This document shows positions 46,754 to 64,000 of a stretch of 64,000 bases of DNA, piece after piece. Origin of the DNA: Yuukianura sp. NJ FZ-2021 (lineage: Eukaryota); NCBI GenBank assembly GCA_046563655.1, contig JAJCTO010000015.1, forward strand, positions 62,001 through 126,000. Reading direction: 5' to 3'. A model generated the notes under the pieces. That model had not been told where the DNA came from, searched no databases, and saw only the letters and a list, made by a program, of their open reading frames with translations. Numbering within the stretch: position 1 is the stretch's first letter; every line of letters starts with the position of its first letter. Position numbers and translations under genes: made by a program.

Positions 46754-46760
46754 TTGAGGT

Positions 46761-47860
46761 ATGGCTGTTCCCTACTCCAAAAATCAACGAATCAAAATCG
46801 TCCAACTACGCTACCAGCATTTCCACGAATCCTACACGGACGTAATGCGTCGATACAACATTGATCCTGTTTCCATCAATCGTCCAATGATTTATTCCAA
46901 AGATGTCAAAGCGATTATTGAAAAATTTGAAGAAACTGGCTGTGTTGACTCGTCACACCGGACTAAAGGAAGCCGACCACTGACTGCTACTGACGAAAAT
47001 ACTTCAGCAGTTGTCCTAGCCGCTTTTGAAGCGGAACCCCACACAACAATAGGGAATGTGGCCTTGGAATGTGGAATCTCACCTGGCTCCGTACATAAGA
47101 TCGCAAAAAAATACAAGTACCGGCCGTACAAAGTTCGAGTACATCAGCAGCTTAAGCAGACTGACTATGTCAAACGAGTTCAATTTGCTCAAGATTTGAT
47201 ACCGAGAATGAACGCAGTACCGGACTGGGCGAAAAGGGTGGTTTTTAGTGACGAGGCAAAGGTACTGTTGAACGGAGTTTTTAATCGCCAGAATTATCGG
47301 TATTGGTCAAATGATAATCCCCACTGGCTGGCAGACTTGAAATCACAAGGTGCGCCAAAACTGGATTTATGGGTCGGATTCTTTGGGGACGAGGTCATTG
47401 GTCCATATTTCTTTCCGGGAAATGTGAATAGTTCAGCGTACCTTAACATGCTCCAAAATTACGCCTGCCCTGAAATTTTACGTTCCGCGACTCGACAAGG
47501 CATTCCACATCACGACATCATTTACCAGCAGGATGGGGCAAGTGTACACTGGGCAATAGTCGTAAGGAACTGGCTCAACGCAACGTTTCCAAACCGCTGG
47601 ATTGGTAGAGACGGTCCAATCGCATGGCCCCCGCGCAGTCCTGAGATGGCACCACTTGATTACTTTGGATTTGGGTTCATGCGCCAAAAAATTTTTTACC
47701 TCCTAGAGCTCAAACGATTCCTGATCTCCAAACTCGTGTCACACACTTTTTTAAAAATGAAATCACTGCCCAAATGCTGCGAAACGTTAGGCAAGGATTT
47801 TACGATCGTCTGCATCAGTGTTTGCAAGAGAATGGCCAACATTTCGAACATCTGCGTTAA
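46761..47860 (+). pseudogene. DD41D transposase, 1-bp frameshift near the C-terminus (366 aa if repaired)
   Basis: Motifs VVFSDEA, YQQDGASVH and WPPRSPEMAPLDY, with 41 residues between the 2nd and 3rd Asp. N-terminal HTH-like region. The T-run at ~47692 is T6 versus T7 in copy 2, shifting the C-terminal tail. Could be a homopolymer sequencing error. Confidence 0.88.
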
Positions 47861-48059
47861 CTGATTAACATTTAGAAGCTTACTGTGTGAATTAATTATT
47901 GAATGATAACTCTGATTTACAGTACAACTTTAATTCAACTCTAATTTGTTTCGTTTGATTAAAAAAAAATTTTTTGGAAGCCCGCGCAAAACTCGTCGTT
48001 TCCCGCCTTTTTTGTTTGAAATTGGAGAAAGCATTTACTAGGGGGAATTGAAAGCACTG

Positions 48060-51000: not shown

Positions 51001-51278
51001 AACTCATTTTCACCCGGCATCGCTCCGAGTGGAGGTTCTTGAAACAAATTTTCATAAAGAAAAGTAACGAGATGAGGGACGACACGGCAAGTGAAAGTGG
51101 GTTCCTGTAGCACTTTTTATGAGAATCTCAAAAATGCAATTTACTTTCTGTTCATTCTCACATTTGCATGTTCATTCTCTCAAATTTATGTCGTTTTCAC
51201 ACAATGGTGCTCGGCATTGCTCAATTTGCCGTTTACCAACCCAAGATAAACTCCGGGGCAGTGCGGTTCATCCAGACT
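48060..51278. repeat. Satellite segment dominated by 372-bp (A+C) units, with 744-bp dimeric higher-order repeat
   Basis: ORF spacing of 372 bp (48704, 49076, 49448, 49820, 50192) with alternating variants (AVY...SHG versus AIY...SPG). Confidence 0.96.
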
Positions 51279-51695: not shown

Positions 51696-51708
51696 CCTTC
51701 CTCCTTCT
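51696..51708 (-). other. Polypurine tract
   Basis: Minus-strand AGAAGGAGGAAGG directly abuts the TG of the 3' LTR and overlaps the ORF3 stop codon. Confidence 0.9.
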
Positions 51709-53725
51709 AAAGATCGGGTTCCGGGGCATTCCTCGGGACACGATCTCCAACATCCTCAGCTTCTCGGGCTGCACGTTCTGCTTCTCGTTGCAAACGCTCC
51801 TCCTCAGCACGAATACGAAGATTCCGGCGACGATTCATGTTCAACCGTCGCCTGCGATGACGTCGTCTAGCTTCCTCTTCTGGCAGATGACGGAATCGGC
51901 AAAACATCACATCCGTATGCCGCTCGCTTCCACAGTGGGGACAGTTCCGCCGATCTCGCCGATCTCTTCGTTCGGCTGCAGCTACTACTTCCTGGGGCTC
52001 CTCCTCCATCGCAGCCATCACTTCCTGGGGATCTTCCTCTGGTACTTGTGGTTCGTAAACCACATTCGGATGGTCTTCTTGTGGTACTCCTACCACCTCG
52101 CGAAGGTCATCTTCAGAAACAGTGACAACCAACATGTCACCATCATCACTATCCATGAATTCCTCCACTGCACATTCCACTTCCACTTGAGATTCCTCTT
52201 CTTCCTCCTCCAATGGTTGGTCAGAAACATCTGACAAATCGGAAACATCCGATAAACCATCAATGTCAACAGGCACTGGAGCACTACTATTTACACTTTG
52301 GGAAGTTGTTTTACCAACTTCCGCCTCCATCCTGGCAATATCCTCTCTGGTGACTGGCGTATCCCAGTCAAAAACAGACAAATCCAGAGTCACTTTAGGC
52401 ACTGTAGCAGAACTATTTACACTTTTGGAAGTTGACTTAGCAACTTCCTGTTCCATTCTTTGTACATCTTCTTTAGTGATTGGTGTATCCCAATCAAACA
52501 CCGATAAATCCAAAGTCACTTTCTGCACCGTAGAAGTTGTAGCAGCAACTTCTGTGACTCCACCCACTACTTTAGTAGACACAAAAACTGCAAGTAGCAT
52601 CTCCAAATGACCAAATGACAAAACATTTTTGCCAATAACTCTCTCAATGTCCAACTTATTTTTAGGCCCTTCTTTGACCAATTGAGCACAAGTAACGTCA
52701 GCAATGACTTCTTTTGGTTGAACGTCCATCTCCCTGGCAACCAAGTCCCTCCAGCCAACAACTTGCTCCATCACACTTACACATAAAGTGGGCATGTCCA
52801 CTTTAGCCAGAATCTCACGGGCACTTAGATGAGGCTTAAACTTGTAGACTTTTAAGCACAAATCGTTACATAATTTGACAACCTCCTTCCACTTAACACT
52901 TTCACTATTGAAGTCATAACGTTTTTTCATGACTTCAAATACACGTAACAACAAATGCGAGTCACTTCTGGCGTACTGAATCATGTCTGGATGCATGTTT
53001 TGAACAGGGCGAATCCTAAAATCAGCCAATTGACAATCCTTGCGCACTGTCACACCAGGCAAGTAGTCACTAATCACTTTGTCCAGTCCACGTCCCTGAT
53101 GACCACCAAAGACAGAATCAACAATTTGAGTGTCAATTACACCCACGAAGAAGATTTGGTAGTGGAGCTGGAACATGAGCATGTCATTAACACTGCCATG
53201 CATAATCTTGACATAATTGCCATTGGAGAACACCTCACGTAACATCTGCATCTGAATAGGCACTTCAAATGGATCAATGATGAAATCCGATTCCTTGGTC
53301 GAAATCTGCAAGGAACAAACATAACGATCACGATAGCCCTTGTCATGACTAAACTCCATGTCCACACTGATTACTCGTTCGGCTCTCAACAAACCAAGCA
53401 TAACCATGAACTTTGCTTCCGTGTCGATAATGCGAATTGGCACTTGCAGTCTCTCATCCATAATCGGTTGTTTTGAAGGCTCCATCACTGCGTCCCACAA
53501 CCGAAAAACTTTCACTAACGACACATGAGGATGATATTTGTATGGGAATTCATCCCATGAATTCCGTTGAGCAGATTCAAATAAAAACATGTCCTTACGT
53601 TCCTGTGGACTCTTATCAGCAGTACCATACTTTAGTTCGCACTCACGTCTCTTCTTCCAGTAATCTTGAGTTTTCTTTTTCTTTCCACTGACTGGAACCA
53701 CATCACTAGCTACGGATGATGGCAT
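51707..53725 (-). CDS. ORF3: Rrp6/EXOSC10-like DEDDy 3'-5' exoribonuclease with HRDC domain and low-complexity C-terminal tail (672 aa from first ATG)
   Basis: ExoI ISVDME; CSLQISTKESDFIIDP (Rrp6: CLMQISTRTEDFIID); ExoII KIMHGSVND (KVFHGADSD); QLADFRIRP (QLADWRIRP); ExoIII YARSDSHLL (YARDDTHYL); HRDC WRDLVAREMD (WRDKTARRED). Uninterrupted frame, first ATG at 53725. Rrp6 motifs quoted from memory. Confidence 0.92.
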   Translation of the reverse strand: MPSSVASDVVPVSGKKKKTQDYWKKRRECELKYGTADKSPQERKDMFLFESAQRNSWDEFPYKYHPHVSLVKVFRLWDAVMEPSKQPIMDERLQVPIRIIDTEAKFMVMLGLLRAERVISVDMEFSHDKGYRDRYVCSLQISTKESDFIIDPFEVPIQMQMLREVFSNGNYVKIMHGSVNDMLMFQLHYQIFFVGVIDTQIVDSVFGGHQGRGLDKVISDYLPGVTVRKDCQLADFRIRPVQNMHPDMIQYARSDSHLLLRVFEVMKKRYDFNSESVKWKEVVKLCNDLCLKVYKFKPHLSAREILAKVDMPTLCVSVMEQVVGWRDLVAREMDVQPKEVIADVTCAQLVKEGPKNKLDIERVIGKNVLSFGHLEMLLAVFVSTKVVGGVTEVAATTSTVQKVTLDLSVFDWDTPITKEDVQRMEQEVAKSTSKSVNSSATVPKVTLDLSVFDWDTPVTREDIARMEAEVGKTTSQSVNSSAPVPVDIDGLSDVSDLSDVSDQPLEEEEEESQVEVECAVEEFMDSDDGDMLVVTVSEDDLREVVGVPQEDHPNVVYEPQVPEEDPQEVMAAMEEEPQEVVAAAERRDRRDRRNCPHCGSERHTDVMFCRFRHLPEEEARRRHRRRRLNMNRRRNLRIRAEEERLQREAERAAREAEDVGDRVPRNAPEPDL
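52278..52530 (-). repeat. 126-bp (42-aa) tandem duplication inside ORF3
   Basis: TVQKVTLDLSVFDWDTPITKEDVQRMEQEVAKSTSKSVNSSA followed by TVPKVTLDLSVFDWDTPVTREDIARMEAEVGKTTSQSVNSSA; nucleotide offset 126. Confidence 0.93.
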
Positions 53726-53785: not shown

Positions 53786-56700
53786 TTAACTTCTGTATCC
53801 AGCGAGCGTGCGGTAGTTGAGCCGAACTTTTTTCCTCAAAGTTCTTCCTCCAGAGTTCGCTTCCTCCTCCGAGTCCGACCAATCCTCTGACTTAGTGGGA
53901 ATTTTCGGAACCGCAAACTGCGACGTGCGAACAGTATAAGGCTTCAACTCCGACACATGACGCTTTCCAAAATTAGTTTTTTCAGGCAATGTCACAAGTT
54001 TGAAGGTCACTGGGGTTAACACTTCACTAATTTGGTATGGACCAATGTAACGAGGATCTAATTTTTTCGCAATTCCTTTTGTCTGACAACGAATGATTTT
54101 TTATAAGCACTAAATCACCAACTTGAAAGTTTCCTTCTTGATGTTTAGAGTCATAATGCTTGATATTATGCTCATGTGCTTCTTCCATGTTCTTCCTCAC
54201 GAACTGAATAATTTCTTCCAATTGAGCAGGCAGAAGTCCTAACTTCCGGACTTCCCTGTCACCATCACTTTGTAAGTTCCTATCAAGGGGCAGCAGAATC
54301 TCACGACCTAAATTTAGTAACGCAGGAGTCACTTTAGTAGTCGAATGTACAGAAGTTCTAAGAGCCAATGCGAACTTCTGGAGATGCTGGTCCCATGATC
54401 TATGATTCTTGTCGACATAAGCCTGGAGCATAGGCTTAAGGTTCCGATTGACCCTTTCGACTGTGTTAGCTTGCGCATGGTACGGACTAACAGGCACATG
54501 GTTGATCTTCCAGACCTTGGCCATCTTAATCATCACTTTGGATAGAAATTGGCTTCCATTGTCCGACACAACTGTTTTCGGAGTACCATAACGACAAAAA
54601 ATTTCATCCACTAACACTTGCACAACTTTTTTCGATTTTGCTTTCCGCATCGGGAATAACTCCACCCACTTGGATAAATCGTCTTCCACGACGAACAAAT
54701 ACTCATTCTGATTTGAAGATCTCGGCAGTGGTCCCAGAAAATCAATGTAGATTTTCTCAAACACTTTAGTTGGAGGTGACACTGCTTGAAGTAATCCAAA
54801 GGGCTTGTAGTTGCAAGACTTGACCGCTTGACAAACTGGACACGATTTTACATAATCACTGATGTCCTTATTCATATTTTTCCAGAAAAATCTTCTCTTG
54901 ATTTTCACTTTTGTGGCTTTGATGCCAAGATGCGCTGCTTCTGGCACATCATGAAGTAACTTCATTATTTCGGGTATCATGACCCTTGGTACCACTGGCA
55001 CCTGAATGAGCTCACTTTTACGAGCTGAGGAACTGCTGAACTCTTTTTTGTCAACGTCCTCTAGAGTGATGTCGGAAGATTGAGGCCTCGTTTCCGCACA
55101 TCGCCCCTCGATAATGTCTCCGCAGAAACCATTATCGGAATAGAAGTCAAATCCCTTGACTTCTCTGCCTAGTACGCCATTCTTTAGGACGTAACTTTTA
55201 ACACTTTTACCACTTTCAATGTCACTGATCACTTTCACTAAATCAGGATCTTTTCGTTGTTCGTCTTTCATCTTCTGGATCGTAGGAGTATCAAACGACA
55301 GTAACGCCACTGCAGTTGGCGAGTACATGTACGCCGGGGAATCATCTTCAAAATCGAGATCCGCTTCATCGACAGGAACTGGAGCACGTGAAAGCGCGTC
55401 CGCCTCCACATTATCCTTCCCGGAGCGATGCTTGATCTCGACACCCCATGACTTGATCTCCGTATCCCACAAAGCCAATTTTGCTTTCCGCTCCTTCATC
55501 TTGTTGAGGAATGATAAGGCTTTGTTGTCAGTAATGATTGTGAACTTCTGACCTTCAATGTATTCTCTGAGCTTCCGGTAGGCCCAAATAATCGCGAACA
55601 ACTCTTTTTCATAAATGTGGTACCGAATTTCTGATTTTCGGAGTGTTTTACTGATGAACATCACTGGTCTCTCTACACCATTAATCACTTGAGTTAAGGC
55701 CGCACCTAACCCATAATTCGACGCATCACACTTTAGCAAAATCGGATGGTCGTAGTCAACTGCATGTAACATCACATCATTGCACATTGACTCTTTTAGT
55801 AACTGAAACGACTTCTCTTGCTCGTCACCCCAAACCCACGGTTGATTCTTTCTTAGAAGTCGGTACAGTGGCTCTGCCTTTGCAGCAAAATGTTCAATAA
55901 ATGGAGCATACCACTGAGTCATTCCATGGAAACTTTGAACTTCCTTGACGTTCTTCGGAGTAGGGAAATCCACTATGGCACTCACTTTTTTAGGACACTT
56001 TTGTAGACCATGTTCTGTCAAACGATGGCCCAACACATCAACCTCTCTCCTACAACACTGTAACTTTTGAGGACTAATGGTGAGTCCCGCCATCTTCAAC
56101 CTACTCAGCACTTTTTCTAAATGCACTAAATGTTCGTCCAGAGTCTTACTGAACAAAATGATATCGTCCATGTAGCACTTTGCAAACTTGGAGAATCCTT
56201 GGATGACTTTCCGCATCAACTGTTGACACGTCTTTGGACTATTTTTTAATCCGAATGGCATCACTAAAAACTCGTAGTGGCCATCTTGAGTCACGAACGC
56301 TGACTTTTCAACACTGTCCGGATGCAACTTGACTTGCCAATAACCTTTCGCAAGATCAATCACTGTGTACCAATAACCAGCAGGAATTGTGTGTAAAATG
56401 GAATGAGCACTTTCCATTGGCGCAGCATTCGTCTTCGTTTGTTGATTGAGCAACGTATAGTCCACACAGAGTCTCTTACTGCCGTCTTTCTTTGGTACCA
56501 CCACAACTGGAGCTGCATACGGTGACCTTGAAGGTCTGATTAGACCTTCCTTCAACATTTCTTGAATTTGATCATTGATGATCTTTTGCATTTCTGGTGA
56601 CCTTCTGTAAGGGTTCCTTGCCGGTGGACACCCTTCATCTTCTATCACATGATGAGTCAGGTCCGTCCTTCCCAACTTCCCATCACTCCGGACAACCGTT

Positions 56701-57239
56701 GGAAATTTCTCTAGGACACGCTGAACTCTCACTTGCACTTCACTATCTTGATTGTGACTTTCTGGTAAAGCCACTGAAAACAACGCAGTACCGGTTGTTT
56801 CTGTAGTGGAAGTCAATTTGAATTTCTGACTTCCATTGTCACCAAACCAAAACTCCTTACTTCTCAATCTAATTACAATGTCATTCTGAAAACAAAAATC
56901 AGAACCCAACACACACTTAACTGGCAACCCTTCCGCCACATAGAACTTCGACTTCAAAGTTCGACCACCAATTTTTATATACACAAAACAGAAGCCAATG
57001 AGACGCAGCTTCTGACTATTCATCATCGTTGTAGATTTATTTTTTAATGGAACTACAACTGACTTTAACTTTTCACATAACTTTACATCAATGAGTGACT
57101 GCGAACATCCCGTGTCGAAAATAGCCAAAAATTTCGAATCTTCATTCGCCACAGTCACAAAAGGAATTAAATCGTCCGAAACTTGAACTAAGGTAGGGTG
57201 AATGATGGACGACTTCTCATTCACCACTGCGCGTTTAAC
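53786..57239 (-). CDS. pol: Pol polyprotein (protease, RT, RNase H, integrase) with a frameshift at ~54077 before the GPY/F motif
   Basis: PR IFDTGCS; RT YMDDII; RNase H CDASNYGLGA, EKELFA, TDNKAL, ADALSR; IN H-H-C-C and IDFLGP, SDNGSQF, VERVNR. The +1 frame continues GIAKKLDPRYIGPYQISEVLTPVTF...RHVSELKPY to the stop at 53786. Confidence 0.95.
57169..57239 (-). promoter_or_regulatory. Putative -1 programmed ribosomal frameshift signal (G-UUA-AAC plus H-type pseudoknot)
   Basis: Slippery heptamer at 57239-57233 in gag phase, 7-nt spacer, 9-bp stem GGUGAAUGA/UCAUUCACC (57225-57197), and loop AAGUCGUCC complementary to downstream GGACGAUUU (57177-57169). Pol is in the -1 frame. Confidence 0.8.
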
Positions 57240-58743
57240 TTCTCATTAGAAGTCGACGCTTCATTCTTTTCAGGTGGCTCCTTCTTCTTCTTTGGAACTG
57301 GAGGTCCTTGAGGGACCTCCTCAGGAAATGACCCTAAAGCCAAACCAACACCTGATGGACACTGAAACTTACGATGCCCATAACCATTACACTTGAAGCA
57401 CTGAACATCACTTAAATCTTGCCGAGAGGTCTGACCTTGACCTCTGCCTTGACCACCACCACGATCACTGTCATTAGAAGAACCGCGATTACCACGGTAA
57501 CCGCCCTTTCCACGTGCAGATAATTCATTTTGAGGCTGCACTAAATTCTTGTCATAATTTGATTTTGAACTTTGACCTTGTGACTGGTCATTGGGTTGAG
57601 ATGAGGAATGTCCACTGTTCGGACTTCCATTACTTCCATTAGTCGGGGATTGATCACTGGAATAATTCTTGTAGCCATTTCCCTTGCCTTTCCAGTTTCC
57701 ACGGAAGCCATTATTTTTGGCTTCCTTCCCACGAATCCAATTATTTCCATTGGAAGTTCCAGCAGAACTTCCATTATTTGAATTAGTGGAATTATCATCT
57801 TTCTTGACTGACTCTGACTTTGAGTCGACCTTGACAATTGGAGGTAATCCGAATTTGTTTTTTGTGATTCTATCTTCTGCTGTCAAATTTGCATGTGCAA
57901 TTCGACATGCATCAAAAAGTGATTCCACTGTGTCAAACTGTTGAGTTCCTAGGGCTGTGCGAATCCTCGGATTCAAACCTAACTTTGCGCGTAGCACTGC
58001 ATCAGCCACTGACTCATGTGGATAAATTAATCTGGAGCACCGAACCACATCATACAAATAAAATTCAACAGACTCGTTGAACTGTTGTCTTCTTGTGTGC
58101 AGAAGCCTCGTTCGTTCTGCCACGTCCATCCAATTATCATATCTGTTGATAAAAGCATCTTTGAATCTGTCACTGTCACTAGGATGTGGTCTAGCCATGG
58201 TTGAGATTCTACTGGCAAGACCGTCTTCACAAGATAAAGAAACTGCCTCTGCTCGTGTCCTTGAGCAGTGAAGTAACGCTCTACTTCATTAAGGTAGCCT
58301 GCCGCTGACATCTTCTTTGGATCAAGACTCGGCACAGGCAATTTAGATGATAATGATGTGAACTTGATACTCTTCAATGCTGTTATCAATGCTTGGGTCT
58401 GACCAACTGGATCTGCCTCCGCAGGGGCTGGAGTCACCGCAGCGACTCCACCGGTCACCCTCTGAACTAATCTCTGCTCCACGCCGCGCACGGCATGGGC
58501 CACGGCCTCGGCCACTAATCTGTCCACTTCATCCTTGGTGTATGTTGCCATGGTTACAGATGAACCTGGGGCACTAACGATGATTTTTGGGGATGTACTT
58601 GGAGTCGGAATCTTACTTTCTTGACTTCGGAGAAACGGTCCTTCCGAATCTGATGTTGGACTAAGCTCTGGTAGCTTAAATGTCACTGTAGGATCAATTT
58701 CAAGATTTTTCAATTCTTTACTTACTGGTTTTTTGTCTGACAT
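57221..58743 (-). CDS. gag: Gag, split by a frameshift at ~58160-58180
   Basis: ORF 58743-58027 (YLNEVERYF...PWLDHIL) and ORF 58198-57221 (FKDAFINRY...RRQQFNESVEFY...) together form a retrotransposon capsid-like region. G/R/N-rich linker and CX2CX4HX4C knuckle CFKCNGYGHRKFQC. Confidence 0.88.
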
Positions 58744-58973
58744 GGAGTGGATCCAGTGGAAGTTGTTTCGGCAACTTCCTCCTTCTATGTACAGAATTTA
58801 CAGATGATCCACTTCAGAATTATGGCCACTTTCCTTTTGACCAAAGGTAACGTCCCCTCACGAACAATTACATGATGTCTTGATCCCACTTGACACAGAA
58901 TAAAAGTTTTTAAACACTCACCATGTGTTGTTACACCATTGTGACCTTTGACCTCAGCAGTAACACTCACAAA

Positions 58974-58983
58974 ACGGTCGCCA
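58974..58983 (-). other. Primer binding site, probably tRNA-Arg(UCG)
   Basis: TGGCGACCGT lies 2 nt inside the 5' LTR and is complementary to ...ACGGUCGCCA, the 3' end I recall for insect tRNA-Arg(UCG). tRNA identity not verified. Confidence 0.75.
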
Positions 58984-58985
58984 TG

Positions 58986-59400
58986 TGTAGCACCTCGTGC
59001 TACGTAAACTGCCAAAAATGGCCTCAGACAAACGATCCGAGCACTGCCGGACTCATGCAACGAACTGAGGAACCAAAGAACACCAAATGAAACAACACGA
59101 AGACAACACAAAGACTCGAAGACAAATAAATATAAAATATATTTATTTGTACAAAAGATACAAAGTCTTCAGCTCATGCTGAGACAAACACCAAAAACCG
59201 ACTGACTAGCACAACTAGTCTCCAATACTCTCCTGCCTCTCCTCTAACACGCTAACTCTCTCAAAACTCGCGCTAAGCGCTAAACCCAATCTCACTAACG
59301 GCTAAACTAAACCACTAACCTAACTACCCTAACCTAAGGCCACTCCCTAACCTCAAGGGCAATTGACCCTAACCTAAAGGGGGAAAACCGGGGCACTTCA
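58986..59400 (-). repeat. 5' LTR (415 bp)
   Basis: Direct repeat of 51279-51695 with TG...CA ends; followed on the minus strand by the PBS. Confidence 0.96.
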
Positions 59401-60371
59401 GACTTTTAAGCACACTCTAACCAGATTTAATGGCGATCTATCCACGCCAATCAAACTTGGGTTCCTGAAGTACTTTTCAGGAGGATTTCAGAAAAGTAAC
59501 TCATTTTCACCCGGCATCGCTCCGAGTGGAGGTTCTTGAAACAAATTTTAATAAAGAAAAGTAACGAGATGAGGGACGCCACGGCAAGTGAAAGTGGGTT
59601 CCTGTAGCACTTTTTATGAGGATTTCAAAAATGTAATTTACTTTCTGTTCATTCTCACATTTGCATGTTCATTCTCTCAAATTTATGTCGTTTTCGACAA
59701 AATGGTGCTCGGCATTGCTCAATGTGCCGTTTACCAACCCAAGATAAACTCCGAGGCAGTGCGGTTCATCCAGACTTTTAAGTACACTCTAACCAGATTT
59801 AATGGCGATCTATCCACGCCAATCAAACTTGGGTTCCTGAAGTACTTTTCAGGAGGATTTCAGAAAAGTAACTCATTTTCACACGGCATCTCTCCGAGTG
59901 GAGGTTCTTGAAACAAATTTTCATAAAGAAAAGTAACGAGATGAGGGACGACACGGCAAGTGAAAGTGGGTTCCTGTAGCACTTTTTATGAGGATCTCAA
60001 AAAGGTAGTTGACTTTTACCTAGCATCGTTCCGGAATGCATTTCTTTTGAATTCTTTGTTTTAAAACTTGAATTTTCATAAATAAAGGTAACAAGATGAG
60101 GCACGACACAGCAAGTGAAAGTGCGTTCCTGTAGCACTTTTTATGAGGATTTCAAAAATGTAACTTACTTTCTGTTCATTCTCACATTTGCATGTTCATT
60201 CTCTCAAATTTATGTCGTTTTCGACAAAATGGTGCTCGGCATTGCTCAATGTGCCGTTTACCAAACCAAGATAAACTCCGAGGCAGTGCGGTTCATCCAG
60301 ACTTTTAAGCACACTCTAACCAGATTTAATGGCGATCTATCCACGCCAATCAAACTTGGGTTCCTGAAGTA
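59401..60371. repeat. Satellite segment
   Basis: Same A/B/C sub-repeats, resuming at the TSD. Confidence 0.96.
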
Positions 60372-62027
60372 CAGTGCGTTCAATTACCCCCAGTAAATGC
60401 TTTCCCTTGGGTGGGGAGGAAAATCTCTTTGCGCGCCGAAATTGCGCGGCAAAACCAACTCACATAAAGAAAAACAAAACTTGTTATCTCACTTTGTTCG
60501 TCCAGCTGACTTAACTTTGAGATTTCAATTAGTTGTTTTTTGGTATAAACCAATTAATTAACGTGGTTGGGCTCCATCGTTGATCCTGATCCGTCACACA
60601 GTTTCACTCACCGCTTACTGAGGAAAACAAGGTAATTGAATTCGTAATTAACGAAATGTTGTTTGAGGAACCATAAAACCTTGAAATTGAAAACTAACAA
60701 TTTTTAATTGTCTTTTCAGTTGCGGTATGGCTGTTCCCTACTCCAAAAATCAACGAATTAAAATCGTCCAAATACGCTACCAGCATTTCAACGAATCTTA
60801 CACGGACGTAATGCATCGATACAACCTTGATCCTGCTTCCATCAATCGTCCAATGATTTATTCCAAAGATGTCAAAGTGATTATTGACAAATTTGAAGTA
60901 ACTGGCTGTGTTGACTCGTCACACCGGACTAAAGGAAGCCGACCACTGACTGCTACTGACGAAAATACTTCAGCAGTTGTCCTAGCCGCTTTTGAAGCGG
61001 AACCCCACACAACAATAGGGAATGTGGCCTTGGAATGTGGAATCTCACCTGGCTCCGTACATAAGATCGCAAAAAATACAAGTACCGGCCGTACAAAGTT
61101 CGAGTACATCAGCAGCTTAAGCAGACTGACTATGTCAAACGAGTTCAATTTGCTCAAGATTTGATACCGAGAATGAACGCAGTACCGGACTGGGCGAAAA
61201 GGGTGGTTTTTAGTGACGAGGCAAAGGTACTGTTGAACGGAGTTTTTAATCGCCAGAATTATCGGTATTGGTCAAATGATAATCCCCACTGGCTGGCAGA
61301 CTTGAAATCACAAGGTGCGCCAAAACTGGATTTATGGGTCCGATTCTTTGGGGACGAGGTCATTGGTCCATATTTCTTTCCGGGAAATGTGAATAGTGCA
61401 GCGTACCTTAACATGCTCCAATATTACGCCTGCCCTGAAATTTTACGTTCCGCGACTCGACAAGGCATTCCACATCACGACATCATTTACCAGCAGGATG
61501 GGGCAAGTGTACACTGGGCAATAGTCGTAAGGAACTGGCTCAACGCAACGTTTCCAAACCGCTGGATTGGTAGAGACGGTCCAATCGCATGGCCCCCGCG
61601 CAGTCCTGAGATGGCACCACTTGATTACTTTGGATTTGGGTTCATGCGCCAAAAAATTTTTTTACCTCCTAGAGCTCAAACGATTCCTGATCTCCAAAAT
61701 CGTGTCACACACTTTTTTAAAAATGAAATCACTGCCCAAATGCTGCGAAACGTTAGGCAAGGATTTTACGATCGTCTGCATCAGTGTTTGCAAGAGAATG
61801 GCCAACATTTCGAACATCTGCGTTAACTGATTAACATTTAGAAGCTTACTGTACGAATTAATTAGTGAATGGTAACTTTGATTTACAGTCCAACTTTAAT
61901 TGAACTTTAATTTGTTTCGTTTGATTAAAAAAAAATTTTTTTTAGAAGCCCGCGCAAAACTCGTCGTTTCCCGCCTTTTTTGTTTGAAATTGGAGAAAGC
62001 ATTTACTAGGGGGAATTGAAAGCACTG
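60372..62027 (+). mobile_element. DD41D Tc1/mariner-superfamily transposon, copy 2
   Basis: Same TIRs (one extra T>G change in the left TIR), TA duplication at 60370-60371 and 62028-62029, same target position in the satellite. Confidence 0.96.
60727..61826 (+). pseudogene. DD41D transposase, frameshift at the A-run ~61071-61076
   Basis: A6 versus A7 in copy 1 splits the gene into ORFs 60727-61164 and 61161-61826. Catalytic motifs are intact and the C-terminus ends ...ENGQHFEHLR. Confidence 0.88.
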
Positions 62028-64000
62028 TACTTTTCAGGAGGATTTCAGAAAAGTAACTCATTTTCACCCGGCATCTCTCCGAGTGGAGGTTCTTGAAACA
62101 AATTTTCATAAAGAAAAGTAACGAGATGAGGGACGACACGGCAAGTGAAAGTGGGTTCCTGTAGCACTTTTTATGAGGATCTCAAAAAGGTAGTTGACTT
62201 TTACCTAGCATCGTTCCGGAATGCATTTCTTTTGAATTCTTTGTTTTAAAACTTGAATTTTCATAAATAAAGGTAACAAGATGAGGCACGACACAGCAAG
62301 TGAAAGTGCGTTCCTGTAGCACTTTTTATGAGGATTTCAAAAATGTAATTTACTTTCTGTTCATTCGCACATTTGCATGTTCATTCTCTCAAATTTAAGT
62401 CGTTTTCAACAAAATGGTGCTCGGCATTGCTCAATGTGCCATTTACCAACCCAAGATAAACTCCGAGGCAGTGCGGTTCATCCAGACTTTTAAGTACACT
62501 CTAACCAGATTTAATGGCGATCTATCCACGCCAATCAAACTTGGGTTCCTGAAGTACTTTTCAGGAGGATTTCAGAAAAGTAACTCATTTTCACCCGGCA
62601 TCTCTCCGAGTGGAGGTTCTTGAAACAAATTTTCATAAAGAAAAGTTACGAGATGAGGGACGACACGGCAAGTGAAAGTGGGTTCCTGTAGCACTTTTTA
62701 TGAGGATTTCAAAAATGTAATTTACTTTCTGTTCATTCTCACATTTGCATGTTCATTCTCTCAAATTTATGTCGTTTTCGACAAAATGGTGCTCGGCATT
62801 GCTCAATGTGCCGTTTACCAACCCAAGATAAACTCCGAGGCAGTGCGGTTCATCCAGACTTTTAAGTACACTCTAACCAGATTTAATGGCGATCTATCCA
62901 CGCCAATCAAACTTGGGTTCCTGAAGTACTTTTCAGGAGGATTTCAGAAAAGTAACTCATTTTCACACGGCATCTCTCCGAGTGGAGGTTCTTGAAACAA
63001 ATTTTCATAAAGAAAAGTAACGAGATGAGGGACGACACGGCAAGTAAAAGTGGGTTGGTTCCTGTAGCACTTTTTATGAGGATCTCAAAAATGTAGTTGA
63101 CTTTTACCTAGCGTCGTTCCGGAATGCATTTCTTTTGAATTCTTTGTTTTGAAACTTGAATTTTCATAAATAAAGGTAACAAGATGAGGCACGAGACAGC
63201 AAGTGAAAATGGGTTCCTGTAGCACTTTTTATGAGGATTTCAAAAATGTAATTTACTTTCTGTTCATTCTCACATTTGCATGTTCATTCTCTCAAATTTA
63301 TGTCGTTTTCACACAATGGTGCTCGGCATTGCTCAATGTGCCGTTTACCAACCCAAGACAAACTCCGAGGCAGTGCGGTTCATCCAGACTTTTAAGTTCA
63401 CTCTAACCAGATTTAATAGCGATCTATCCACGCCAATCAAACTTGGGTTCCTGAAGTACTTTTCAGGAGGATTTCAGAAAAGCAAATCATTTTCACACGG
63501 CATCTCTCCGAGTGGAGGTTCTTGAAACAAATTTTCATAAAGAAAAGTAACGAGATGAGGGACGACACGGCAAGTGAAATTGGGTTCCTGTAGCACTTTT
63601 TATGAGGATTTCAAAAATGTAATTTACTTTCTGTTCATTCTCACATTTGCATGTTCATTCTCTCAAATTTATGTCGTTTTCACACAATGGTGCTCGGCAT
63701 TGCTCAATGTGCCGTTTACCAACCCAAGATAAACTCCGAGGCAGTGCGGTTCGTCCAGACTTTTAAGTACCCTCTAACCAGATTTAATGGCGATCTATCA
63801 ACGCCAATCAAACTTGGGTTCCTGAAGTACTTTTCAGGAGGATTTCAGAAAAGTAACTCATTTTCACCCGGCATCGCTCCGAGTGGAGGTTCTTGAAAGA
63901 AATTTTCATAAAGAAAAGTAACGAGATGAGGGACGACACGGCAAGTGAAAGTGGGTTCCTGTAGCACTTTTTATGAGGATTTCAAAAATGTAATTTACTT
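62028..64000. repeat. Satellite segment, most diverged units in the window
   Basis: Same sub-repeats with many private substitutions and a 4-bp duplication (gggttggtt at ~63056). Runs off the right edge. Confidence 0.96.

What the first reader, a model, noticed from the sequence alone, without database searches (positions are those of the whole stretch)
51707..53725. Gypsy retrotransposon carries a captured, catalytically intact Rrp6/EXOSC10-like exoribonuclease in the env slot
Seen: a 672-codon uninterrupted ORF between the integrase stop (53786) and the PPT, inside both LTRs and on the same strand as gag/pol, with no obvious signal peptide or TM segment, so not an env. Established: its motifs match the eukaryotic nuclear exosome nuclease Rrp6 specifically (LQIST..DFIID, HG...D, QLADxRIRP, YARxD, then HRDC WRD..AR..D), and the D-E-D-Y-D catalytic set is retained. 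The N-terminal PMC2NT (Rrp47/C1D-binding) domain appears absent and the C-terminus is replaced. Inference: an intronless host-gene capture that now travels with the element. Rrp6 degrades TE and heterochromatic transcripts, so it could be an anti-silencing factor (trimming piRNA/siRNA, decoying the exosome) or process the element's or the satellite's RNA. I recall DEDDy exonuclease ORFs being reported in bdelloid rotifer retroelements, so the general theme has precedent, but I do not know of an Rrp6+HRDC-type ORF3 with this tail in a satellite-embedded gypsy.
Basis: partly seen in the sequence, partly recalled or inferred. Interest (0 to 1): 0.93.

Follow-up and report, generated by a model that had tools for sequence, protein, structure and literature searches.

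The report
Gypsy retrotransposon encoding an Rrp6-like exonuclease
A jumping gene of the gypsy type, sitting in satellite DNA, carries behind its polymerase gene a seemingly working copy of a cellular RNA-trimming enzyme (Rrp6) joined to a zinc-knuckle tail, and the same extra gene recurs in related jumping genes, so it is an old, conserved accessory gene and not a one-off accident.

Summary
On the minus strand, a 672-codon ORF (53725..51707) fills the space between the pol stop (53788-53786) and the polypurine tract. It lies inside an 8.1-kb Ty3/gypsy element with 415/417-nt LTRs, a 4-bp target duplication and a PBS, inserted in a 372-bp satellite.

The protein is Rrp6/EXOSC10-like by sequence (PDB phmmer 4e-26; RNase D only 1e-5) and by predicted fold (Foldseek 2e-20, TM 0.70). 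It keeps all five DEDDy catalytic residues and an HRDC bundle. It lacks PMC2NT and the cellular C-terminal region.

New here: the "replaced" tail is not unique. About 25 relatives share the same layout: short N-terminus, EXO, HRDC, acidic Trp-containing linker, retroviral-type CCHC knuckle, basic tail. On EXO+HRDC columns alone they form one clade apart from cellular Rrp6 (SH-aLRT 99).

Four of four relatives with enough flanking DNA lie downstream of gag-pol in gypsy elements. Named members are from a springtail. The family is multi-copy in two organism labels.

The capture is therefore ancient and lineage-wide. This copy has frame breaks in gag and pol. Function is inferred only. The only precedent found in print is the RNase D-like DEDDy ORF3 of bdelloid rotifers.

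The parts
58986..59400 (-). 5' LTR (415 nt, TG..CA); target-site duplication AGTC at 59401-59404
58975..58983 (-). primer-binding-site-like TGGCGACCG, 2 nt after the LTR
   Evidence: read directly from the sequence; the tRNA was not identified
58916..58922 (-). GGTGAGT, the only strict splice-donor-like heptamer on the element's sense strand; lies in the leader between PBS and gag ATG (58743)
   Evidence: role as donor is inferred, no RNA data
58027..58797 (-). gag, first frame (matches residues 137-283 of the gag of locus L003); the frame breaks near 58165-58182
57221..58285 (-). gag, second frame, with CCHC zinc knuckle (matches L003 gag 266-481)
54027..57242 (-). pol: protease, RT, RNase H, integrase H2C2 and core; no dUTPase
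53786..54100 (-). integrase C-terminal SH3_Tf2-1/GPY-F module in a shifted frame, ending in TAA at 53788-53786; the break coincides with a short length difference from most other copies
51707..53725 (-). ORF3, 672 codons: Rrp6-like exonuclease accessory gene
53444..53725 (-). ORF3 residues 1-94: segment before EXO, homologous to the stretch of Rrp6 between PMC2NT and EXO (RPQ...HP motifs shared with cellular Rrp6); high pLDDT
52919..53434 (-). ORF3 residues 98-269: DEDDy EXO domain (D122, E124, D181, Y251, D255)
52571..52828 (-). ORF3 residues 300-385: HRDC helical bundle
   Evidence: Pfam 19.3 bits, below the 23.8 cut-off; confident helices; aligned with the EXO+HRDC cores of Rrp6
51986..52555 (-). 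ORF3 residues 391-580: acidic, mostly disordered linker (50 D+E against 10 K+R) with a 126-nt tandem duplication (52271-52533) giving two FDWDTP motifs
51899..51943 (-). ORF3 residues 595-609: CCHC zinc-knuckle-like CX2CX4HX5C (family consensus CX2CX4HX4C)
51749..51880 (-). ORF3 residues 616-659: long arginine-rich helix (block pLDDT 85-96 over residues 621-660)
51696..51708 (-). polypurine tract AGAAGGAGGAAGG, abutting the 3' LTR and overlapping the ORF3 stop codon
51279..51695 (-). 3' LTR (417 nt); target-site duplication AGTC at 51275-51278

Best explanation
ORF3 is a genuine accessory gene of a lineage of Ty3/gypsy LTR retrotransposons, conserved across that lineage. It descends from a eukaryotic Rrp6/EXOSC10 gene that was taken up long ago. 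Only part of the gene was kept: the stretch before EXO, the DEDDy EXO domain and the HRDC domain. The two parts that tie Rrp6 to its cellular partners are gone, namely PMC2NT (which binds Rrp47/C1D and through it Mtr4) and the C-terminal exosome-binding region. In their place stands an acidic linker with a conserved acidic-Trp motif, a retroviral nucleocapsid-type CCHC zinc knuckle and an arginine-rich helix. Shown here: identity, fold, retained catalytic residues, domain losses and gains, position in the element, recurrence in related elements, and multi-copy state. Inferred: the protein is an active 3'->5' exonuclease that works without the exosome and finds its substrate through its own knuckle and basic tail. 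It is probably made from a spliced subgenomic RNA, as env genes are. There is a donor-like GGTGAGT in the leader and a pyrimidine tract plus AG just before the ORF3 ATG. My best guess for its role (about 0.4) is that it travels with the element's RNA or Gag particle and trims RNA 3' ends there, whether genomic RNA, primer or RNase H leftovers. The main alternative is that it attacks host RNAs that silence the element (see rivals). The confidence of 0.72 refers to the identity and family-trait part, not to the role.
For: Sequence. Pfam DNA_pol_A_exo1 scores E 1.5e-26. PDB phmmer gives 13 Rrp6/EXOSC10 sequences at E 4e-26 to 4e-22; the next-best hits are a diDNase ancestor and RNase D, both near 1e-5.

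Fold. The AlphaFold2 model has pLDDT of at least 90 for 353 residues. All listed Foldseek PDB matches through rank 12 are Rrp6 catalytic cores (best E 1.8e-20, TM 0.70 over 324 columns); RNase D is rank 14. Viral-library matches are far weaker (best 3e-8).

Catalysis. D-E-D-Y-D is complete in the window and in 22 of 25 family rows.

Family. A full HMMER search gave 3961 hits. The best hit is 38% identical at E 2.4e-70. The top hits are 340-700-aa proteins that begin at their own N-terminus. A CCHC knuckle occurs in the last 200 residues of 18 of 25 family rows against 1 of 130 others. PMC2NT occurs in 0 of 22 family proteins against 25 of 55 others. A profile of cellular C-terminal regions hits 0 of 25 family proteins. 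On 279 EXO+HRDC columns alone, the 25 family rows form one side of a branch with SH-aLRT 99 (80 rows, LG+C20).

Context. In 4 of 4 metagenome contigs with enough upstream DNA (L002, L003, L004, L008) the relative sits after a gag and a PR-RT-RH-IN pol. L003 has terminal repeats. The springtail protein P0009 has an integrase SH3 piece in front of the exonuclease. The window pol is 43% identical to the L003 pol and 33% to the L008 pol. Among the best pol hits are two whose contig lengths equal those of L002 and L003, and springtail proteins.

Copies. 548, 680, 239 and 121 contigs from 4 runs lie on the element. All 30 bins are covered in three runs and 28 of 30 in the fourth, which carries another organism label. 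Of the 28 listed base differences inside ORF3, 13 are synonymous, against 21% expected (binomial p 0.003, or 0.049 if 30% is assumed).

Expression hints..
Against: No RNA run holding the element was found, so neither expression nor splicing is shown. No activity has been measured. This copy has frame breaks in gag and pol, so it is not itself autonomous, and its intact ORF3 could simply reflect its youth. Its knuckle has an off-consensus spacing, H-X5-C. Three of 25 family members have lost catalytic residues, among them the ORF3 of the otherwise intact-looking L003. The family rows have long branches, so part of the clade support could be long-branch attraction (warnings). The nearest non-family rows include alveolate Rrp6 proteins, so the donor lineage is unresolved. 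The synonymous excess rests on 28 best-supported differences out of several hundred and is only borderline under a transition-biased expectation. A strict donor heptamer in the leader is seen only in the window, not in L002, L003 or L004. The PBS looks like an ordinary tRNA 3'-CCA site, which gives no sign that the primer needs trimming.
Confidence: 0.72

Rival explanations
1. Counter-defence nuclease. The protein degrades or over-trims host small RNAs or antisense and surveillance transcripts aimed at the element, or it competes with the host exosome pathway that clears repeat transcripts.
For: An Rrp6 core freed from PMC2NT and from the exosome-binding tail could act on any accessible 3' end. 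The structural matches include small-RNA trimmers of the same fold (Nibbler, E 4e-10) and the piRNA factor EXD1. From general knowledge, some viruses use DEDD nucleases or RNases against host RNA-based immunity. The Drosophila paper on RRP6 and heterochromatic repeats was seen only as a listing and abstract start (PMC4577213).
Against: Nothing tested here bears on substrates. A nucleocapsid-type knuckle and an Arg-rich helix fit binding to the element's own RNA at least as well. Many animal small RNAs are 2'-O-methylated at the 3' end, which usually blocks such nucleases (general knowledge).
Confidence: 0.25
2. RNA-binding adaptor without catalysis. The fold is kept only to bind RNA, as in Maelstrom or EXD1, for example for export or packaging of genomic RNA.
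For: Three of 25 family members have lost one or more catalytic residues. The rotifer paper raises the same idea for its DEDDy ORFs (PMC5408684, passage read). An LTR element's extra protein needed for RNA export is known from the abstract of PMC10309623 (listing only).
Against: 22 of 25 members keep all five catalytic residues at 20-33% overall identity. That is hard to explain without selection on catalysis.
Confidence: 0.1
3. Recent, one-off capture of the host's own Rrp6 mRNA by this particular element or copy.
For: The ORF is intronless and lies between pol and the PPT, a usual place for captured sequence.
Against: The window's ORF3 aligns at only 19-25% identity to the 64 non-family rows of A3, and its best relatives are ORF3s of other gypsy elements. 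The layout is shared family-wide. ORF3 is covered in many diverged contigs from two organism labels.
Confidence: 0.03
4. ORF3 is expressed as a Pol-ORF3 fusion by read-through of the TAA at 53788-53786, since the integrase C-terminal frame and ORF3 share a frame in this copy.
For: The same frame, with a single stop between the two.
Against: In L002, L003, L004 and L008, ORF3 is in a different frame from pol and lies 77-537 nt downstream (stop-to-stop frames). The in-frame state is therefore 1 of 5, about what chance gives.
Confidence: 0.04

Closest known systems
Rrp6 / EXOSC10 (eukaryotic nuclear exosome 3'->5' exoribonuclease)
   Same: Best sequence and fold match. The pre-EXO segment, the DEDDy EXO domain with all five catalytic residues, and the HRDC bundle occur in the same order.
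   Different: No PMC2NT. No match to cellular C-terminal regions. Adds an acidic linker, a CCHC knuckle and an Arg-rich helix. Encoded inside a multi-copy retrotransposon. Forms a separate clade with long branches.
DEDDy-exonuclease ORF3 of bdelloid rotifer LTR retrotransposons (Juno, Vesta) and Athena/Terminon elements (Rodriguez, Kenefick and Arkhipova 2017, PMC5408684; passages read)
   Same: An enzymatic DEDDy exonuclease ORF3 downstream of pol instead of env, with no TM or coiled-coil. The TE-borne copies cluster with each other and not with cellular homologues. Function is unknown.
   Different: By the passages read, the rotifer ORFs are called RNase D-like, were assigned with HHpred, and have DEDD changed to DEED. 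Their carriers Juno and Vesta have a dUTPase between PR and RT. The word HRDC does not occur in that paper. Here Rrp6 is found by plain phmmer at 1e-26, DEDD is kept, HRDC and a CCHC knuckle are present, and no dUTPase is found in the window pol or in 4 related pols. Direct relatedness could not be tested, because no rotifer sequences were on hand and the alignments are 'available on request'.
RNase D (bacterial) and other DEDDy nucleases (WRN exo, Mut-7, Nibbler, EXD1)
   Same: Same EXO fold. RNase D also has HRDC.
   Different: Much weaker matches: RNase D phmmer 1.3e-5 and Foldseek 1e-13 at rank 14; Nibbler 4e-10; EXD1 2e-6.
Retroviral and errantiviral env genes (the usual ORF3 of gypsy-like elements)
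   Same: Position between pol and the PPT; probably expressed from a subgenomic RNA (inferred).
   Different: No signal peptide, TM segment or fusion-protein features. It is an enzyme of cellular origin.

Membership tests
Rrp6/EXOSC10 | DEDDy EXO domain closest to Rrp6, with the D-E-D-Y-D catalytic set | tested here: met
Rrp6/EXOSC10 | HRDC domain directly after EXO | tested here: met
   The Pfam hit is below the cut-off in the window (19.3 against 23.8 bits). The confident helical bundle aligns with Rrp6 EXO+HRDC cores. HRDC is above the cut-off in 9 of 22 family proteins.
Rrp6/EXOSC10 | N-terminal PMC2NT domain (binds Rrp47/C1D) | tested here: not met
   No PF08066 hit in the window ORF3 or in 0 of 22 relatives at E<=0.01, against 25 of 55 non-family rows at E<=1e-5.
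Rrp6/EXOSC10 | C-terminal region that binds the exosome core | tested here: not met
   A profile built from 54 cellular post-HRDC regions hits 0 of 25 family proteins at E<=10, and 40 of 64 cellular ones, which include its own training rows. The region is poorly conserved, so this is a weak test.
Rrp6/EXOSC10 | Cellular gene outside mobile elements | tested here: not met
   Lies between pol and the PPT, inside LTRs with a target duplication.
Ty3/gypsy LTR retrotransposon | LTRs (TG..CA), target-site duplication, PBS and PPT | tested here: met
Ty3/gypsy LTR retrotransposon | gag with CCHC knuckle; pol in the order PR-RT-RNase H-IN, with a GPY/F-SH3 integrase tail | tested here: met
   the gag and pol frames are each broken once in this copy.
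Rotifer-type DEDDy ORF3 retroelements (Juno/Vesta/Athena) | ORF3 downstream of pol encodes a DEDDy exonuclease | tested here: met
Rotifer-type DEDDy ORF3 retroelements (Juno/Vesta/Athena) | Carrier pol has a dUTPase between PR and RT (stated for Juno, Vesta and TelKA in PMC5408684) | tested here: not met
   No dUTPase hit in the window pol (E<=0.01) or in the pols of L002, L003, L004 and L008 (E<=0.001).
Rotifer-type DEDDy ORF3 retroelements (Juno/Vesta/Athena) | Sequence clustering with the rotifer ORF3 proteins | not testable with these tools
Retroviral/errantiviral env | Signal peptide, transmembrane anchor, fusion-protein fold | tested here: not met

The most novel reading that the evidence does not exclude
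A widespread and so far undescribed lineage of Ty3/gypsy elements exists in invertebrates; springtails are the only named hosts seen here. These elements carry their own exosome-independent Rrp6-type RNA exonuclease fused to a nucleocapsid-like zinc knuckle. They would use it as a transposon-encoded weapon against host RNA-based silencing or surveillance, by trimming small RNAs or shielding element transcripts from the nuclear exosome. That would make it an RNA-level counter-defence gene of a retrotransposon.
Probability: 0.2. Interest if true: 0.85.

Novelty: new variant of a known kind. Interest (0 to 1): 0.6.

Why it matters
Extra enzymatic genes in LTR retrotransposons are rare. In the library I searched, DEDDy exonuclease ORF3s are reported only from bdelloid rotifers. 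This finding shows a second, clearly Rrp6-derived form with a fixed and distinctive layout: EXO, HRDC, acidic Trp linker, CCHC knuckle and basic helix. It occurs in a different gypsy lineage and outside rotifers, at least in a springtail. The catalytic residues are conserved across deep divergence.

Rrp6 is the host enzyme that clears repeat-derived and aberrant nuclear RNAs. A transposon that carries a version stripped of its cofactor-binding parts is therefore a concrete, testable candidate for one of two roles: a new step in retroelement replication, or a transposon counter-measure against RNA surveillance and silencing.

It also gives annotators a recognisable marker for this element lineage. 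Gene callers currently label these proteins 'ribonuclease D' or '3'-5' exonuclease domain-containing protein'.

Tried and rejected
- No whole genome is held for the window. Copy census and proper dN/dS were therefore not possible. Only the crude count was made.
- The word-index homologue searches with ORF3 and with alignment A1 returned only two fungal Rrp6 proteins.
- Alignment A1 was too diverse for the locus search. A smaller alignment, A2, worked.
- No RNA holder is listed among the sequencing runs, so expression is untested.
- The protein atlas gave best scores of 0.88 to plant and algal Rrp6-like clusters, which is below 0.9 and so only a lead.
- Earlier-findings look-ups by sequence, by words and by genome returned nothing.
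- A strict GGTRAGT donor in the leader was not found in L002 or L004. In L003 it lies inside gag, and in L008 it lies after ORF3. The splicing model therefore rests on the window and on the acceptor-like tracts only.
- Env reading rejected: no signal peptide or TM segment.
- Pol-ORF3 read-through rejected as a general mechanism: in frame in 1 of 5 elements.
- The host organism could not be named. The best pol hit is 53% identical and unnamed, and the best named hits are from a springtail at 50% and 39%.
- The tRNA matching the PBS was not identified.
- The paper cited elsewhere for exonuclease domains in oomycete elements (PMC5348765) does not contain the word exonuclease by the listing.
Full report
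**1. The observation**

The window is mostly a 372/390-bp satellite. Between 51279 and 59400, on the minus strand, lies one LTR retrotransposon.
- The two LTRs (59400-58986 and 51695-51279) begin with TG and end with CA. They differ by 4 substitutions and 2 one-base indels over about 416 columns.
- They are flanked by a 4-bp duplication, AGTC, of a satellite monomer.
- A PBS-like TGGCGACCG follows the 5' LTR after 2 nt. A 13-nt purine run abuts the 3' LTR.
- Inside are gag (CCHC knuckle), pol (protease, RT, RNase H, integrase) and a third ORF.
- ORF3 is 692 codons stop-to-stop and 672 codons from the ATG at 53725.
- It begins 60 nt after the TAA that closes the integrase SH3/GPY-F frame. Its TAG overlaps the polypurine tract.
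- It has no signal peptide or membrane segment.

One addition: this copy's gag frame is broken near 58165-58182 and its pol frame between 54027 and 54100. At the second place most other copies differ by a short indel.

**2. What the protein is**

- Pfam finds the DEDDy exonuclease domain (E 1.5e-26) and a sub-threshold HRDC.
- Against all PDB sequences, 13 Rrp6/EXOSC10 entries from trypanosome, yeast and human score E 4e-26 to 4e-22. The next-best hits are a diDNase ancestor and RNase D, both near 1e-5.
- An AlphaFold2 model built on an 89-row alignment is confident from about residue 20 to 390.
- All listed Foldseek matches through rank 12 are Rrp6 catalytic cores (E 1.8e-20, TM 0.70 over 324 columns, i.e. 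EXO plus HRDC). RNase D is at rank 14.
- Viral-library matches are much weaker.
- D122, E124, D181, Y251 and D255 align with the Rrp6 catalytic set.
- The first 94 residues correspond to the Rrp6 stretch between PMC2NT and EXO.
- PMC2NT itself is absent.

**3. The tail is a family trait, not a private oddity**

A full HMMER scan of 1.84 billion representatives gave 3961 hits. The best ones are proteins of 340-700 aa that align from their own N-termini (P0005: 38% identity, E 2.4e-70).

Aligned together, they share five features:
- the short N-terminal segment;
- EXO;
- HRDC;
- an acidic linker with a recurrent acidic-Trp motif, duplicated in the window as FDWDTP;
- a CX2CX4HX4C zinc knuckle followed by a basic tail.

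Counts:

| Feature | Family | Other rows |
|---|---|---|
| CCHC knuckle in the last 200 residues | 18 of 25 | 1 of 130 |
| PMC2NT | 0 of 22 | 25 of 55 |
| HRDC at E<=0.01 | 13 of 22 | not counted |
| HRDC above the Pfam cut-off | 9 of 22 | not counted |
| Hit by a profile of cellular post-HRDC regions | 0 of 25 | 40 of 64 (includes training rows) |
| Hit by a profile of family tails | 20 of 25 (includes training rows) | 1 of 64 (P0091, which has a knuckle) |

Trees:
- FastTree on whole-length columns separates a 25-row clade from 130 other rows.
- IQ-TREE (LG+C20, short search) on only the 279 EXO+HRDC columns of 80 rows puts the 25 family rows on one side of a branch with SH-aLRT 99. The window is sister to P0005 (support 91).
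- For this tree I chose 55 of the 130 other rows to span the FastTree clades; the remaining 75 were left out.
- The family rows have long branches. The nearest other rows include alveolate Rrp6 proteins, from Theileria and Symbiodinium. The donor lineage is therefore unresolved, and some long-branch attraction cannot be excluded.
- The shared terminal architecture was not used in the tree, so it independently supports a single origin.

**4. The relatives are ORF3s of gypsy elements too**

A locus search returned 66 loci, of which 8 were strong.
- All four strong loci with enough upstream DNA (L002, L003, L004, L008) have an ORF1 of about 500 aa (L008's is cut at the contig end). A weak Retrotrans_gag hit is seen in L003 and L004.
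- Each has a pol of 1198-1259 aa with RT, RNase H and integrase; a protease hit is listed for L002, L003 and L004.
- Each then has the exonuclease ORF 77-537 nt downstream, in another frame.
- L003 has terminal direct repeats.
- The other four strong loci are short or degraded.
- Named family members are three gene models from the springtail Orchesella dallaii. One of them carries an integrase SH3 piece ahead of the exonuclease.
- The window pol is 43% identical to the L003 pol and 33% to the L008 pol.
- Among its best pol hits are two whose contig lengths equal those of L002 and L003, and springtail proteins. Equating those two hits with L002 and L003 is my inference from contig length.
- ORF3 diverges faster than pol (27% against 43% identity for L003).

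**5. Copies in the host**

- Four runs hold the element: three from one sample and one under another organism label.
- At 85% likeness or more, 548, 680, 239 and 121 contigs lie on it. All 30 bins are covered in three runs and 28 of 30 in the fourth. ORF3 bins have depths like those of pol.
- These are contigs, so depth is not a copy number.
- Several contigs skip 119-186 bases in the linker or HRDC part of ORF3 (table 5), so ORF3 length varies among copies.
- Of the 28 best-supported base differences listed inside ORF3, 13 are synonymous, against 21% expected for random changes (p 0.003; 0.049 if 30% is assumed).
- This is a crude sample; 751 further differences were not shown.
- Across the family, 22 of 25 rows keep all five catalytic residues at 20-33% identity. 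The exceptions are P0006 (the L003 ORF3), P0011 and P0024.

**6. How it probably works**

*Shown.* This is an Rrp6 catalytic core with its active site intact. It has lost both parts that connect Rrp6 to Rrp47/Mtr4 and to the exosome core, and it has gained a nucleocapsid-type knuckle and an arginine-rich helix.

*Inferred.*
- It is an autonomous 3'->5' exonuclease guided by its own nucleic-acid-binding tail.
- It may be made from a spliced subgenomic RNA. The only GGTGAGT on the sense strand lies in the leader. That pattern is not enriched in the window as a whole: 3 were found against 6.2 expected.
- All 5 elements examined have a pyrimidine-rich tract ending in AG within about 40 nt of the ORF3 ATG. 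This is a weak pattern in AT-rich DNA.

*Role.* I favour action on RNA in the element's own particle (about 0.4), because the added module is the kind that binds genomic RNA in Gag. A counter-silencing or surveillance role comes second (about 0.25), then a non-catalytic RNA-handling role (about 0.1). None of these was testable here. No RNA run was found, and the complex predictor was unavailable.

**7. Comparison with what is known**

- It works like Rrp6 but fails three membership features of the exosome subunit: PMC2NT, the C-terminal region, and cellular single-gene status.
- The nearest precedent in print is the RNase D-like DEDDy ORF3 of the bdelloid rotifer elements Juno and Vesta and of Athena/Terminons (PMC5408684; passages read).
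- Those are described as found by HHpred, with DEDD changed to DEED, in elements carrying a dUTPase. The paper does not mention HRDC.
- Here DEDD and HRDC are kept, a knuckle is present and no dUTPase is found.
- Two reviews mention only the rotifer case (PMC5718144, two passages; PMC6338049, one passage).
- Eight full-text searches turned up no description of an Rrp6+HRDC ORF3 in LTR elements.
- Repbase and Dfam could not be searched, and the library lacks most subscription journals, so prior description elsewhere is not excluded.
- Whether the rotifer ORFs and this family share one origin could not be tested. I did not open that paper's supplements; by the passage read, its alignments are available on request.

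**8. Verdict**

The capture is ancient, and the gene is the hallmark of a gypsy lineage, not an event of this copy.

It is a new variant of a known kind (LTR retrotransposons with a DEDDy exonuclease ORF3). It has a well-defined architecture and broader host range than reported, and it offers an attractive but untested link to RNA surveillance.

Noticed in passing
window 46758-47864 (+) and 60691-61826 (+): Two copies of a transposase-like ORF inserted in the satellite, 98% identical over 197 aa. The first is an open 368-codon frame; the second is split over two frames. Only weak helix-turn-helix Pfam hits were found. From recall, the C-terminal motifs look mariner/Tc1-like.
   Followed up: partly
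window 52271-52533 (-), ORF3 residues about 398-485: A 126-nt tandem duplication inside ORF3 gives two 42-aa repeats, each with FDWDTP. An acidic-Trp motif at this place in the linker recurs in most family members. What it binds is unknown.
   Followed up: partly
window about 58775-58790 (-): A second copy of the polypurine-tract-like AGAAGGAGGAAG lies in the 5' leader, upstream of the gag ATG.
   Followed up: no
window 1-51278 and 59401-64000: The whole window outside the inserts is a satellite with 372-bp and 390-bp monomer variants arranged in higher-order blocks. The retrotransposon inserted into a monomer with a clean 4-bp duplication.
   Followed up: partly
L003:6108-7757 (P0006): An element with open gag, pol and ORF3 frames and terminal repeats has the second catalytic residue of its ORF3 changed (E to G). 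At least some otherwise intact-looking elements therefore carry a probably inactive nuclease.
   Followed up: no
P0156 (named protein of the nematode Aphelenchoides besseyi, 1080 aa): A gene model that joins an Rrp6-like EXO+HRDC to an RNB (Rrp44/Dis3-type) domain. It falls with the cellular proteins, not with the transposon family, and may be a fused gene model.
   Followed up: no
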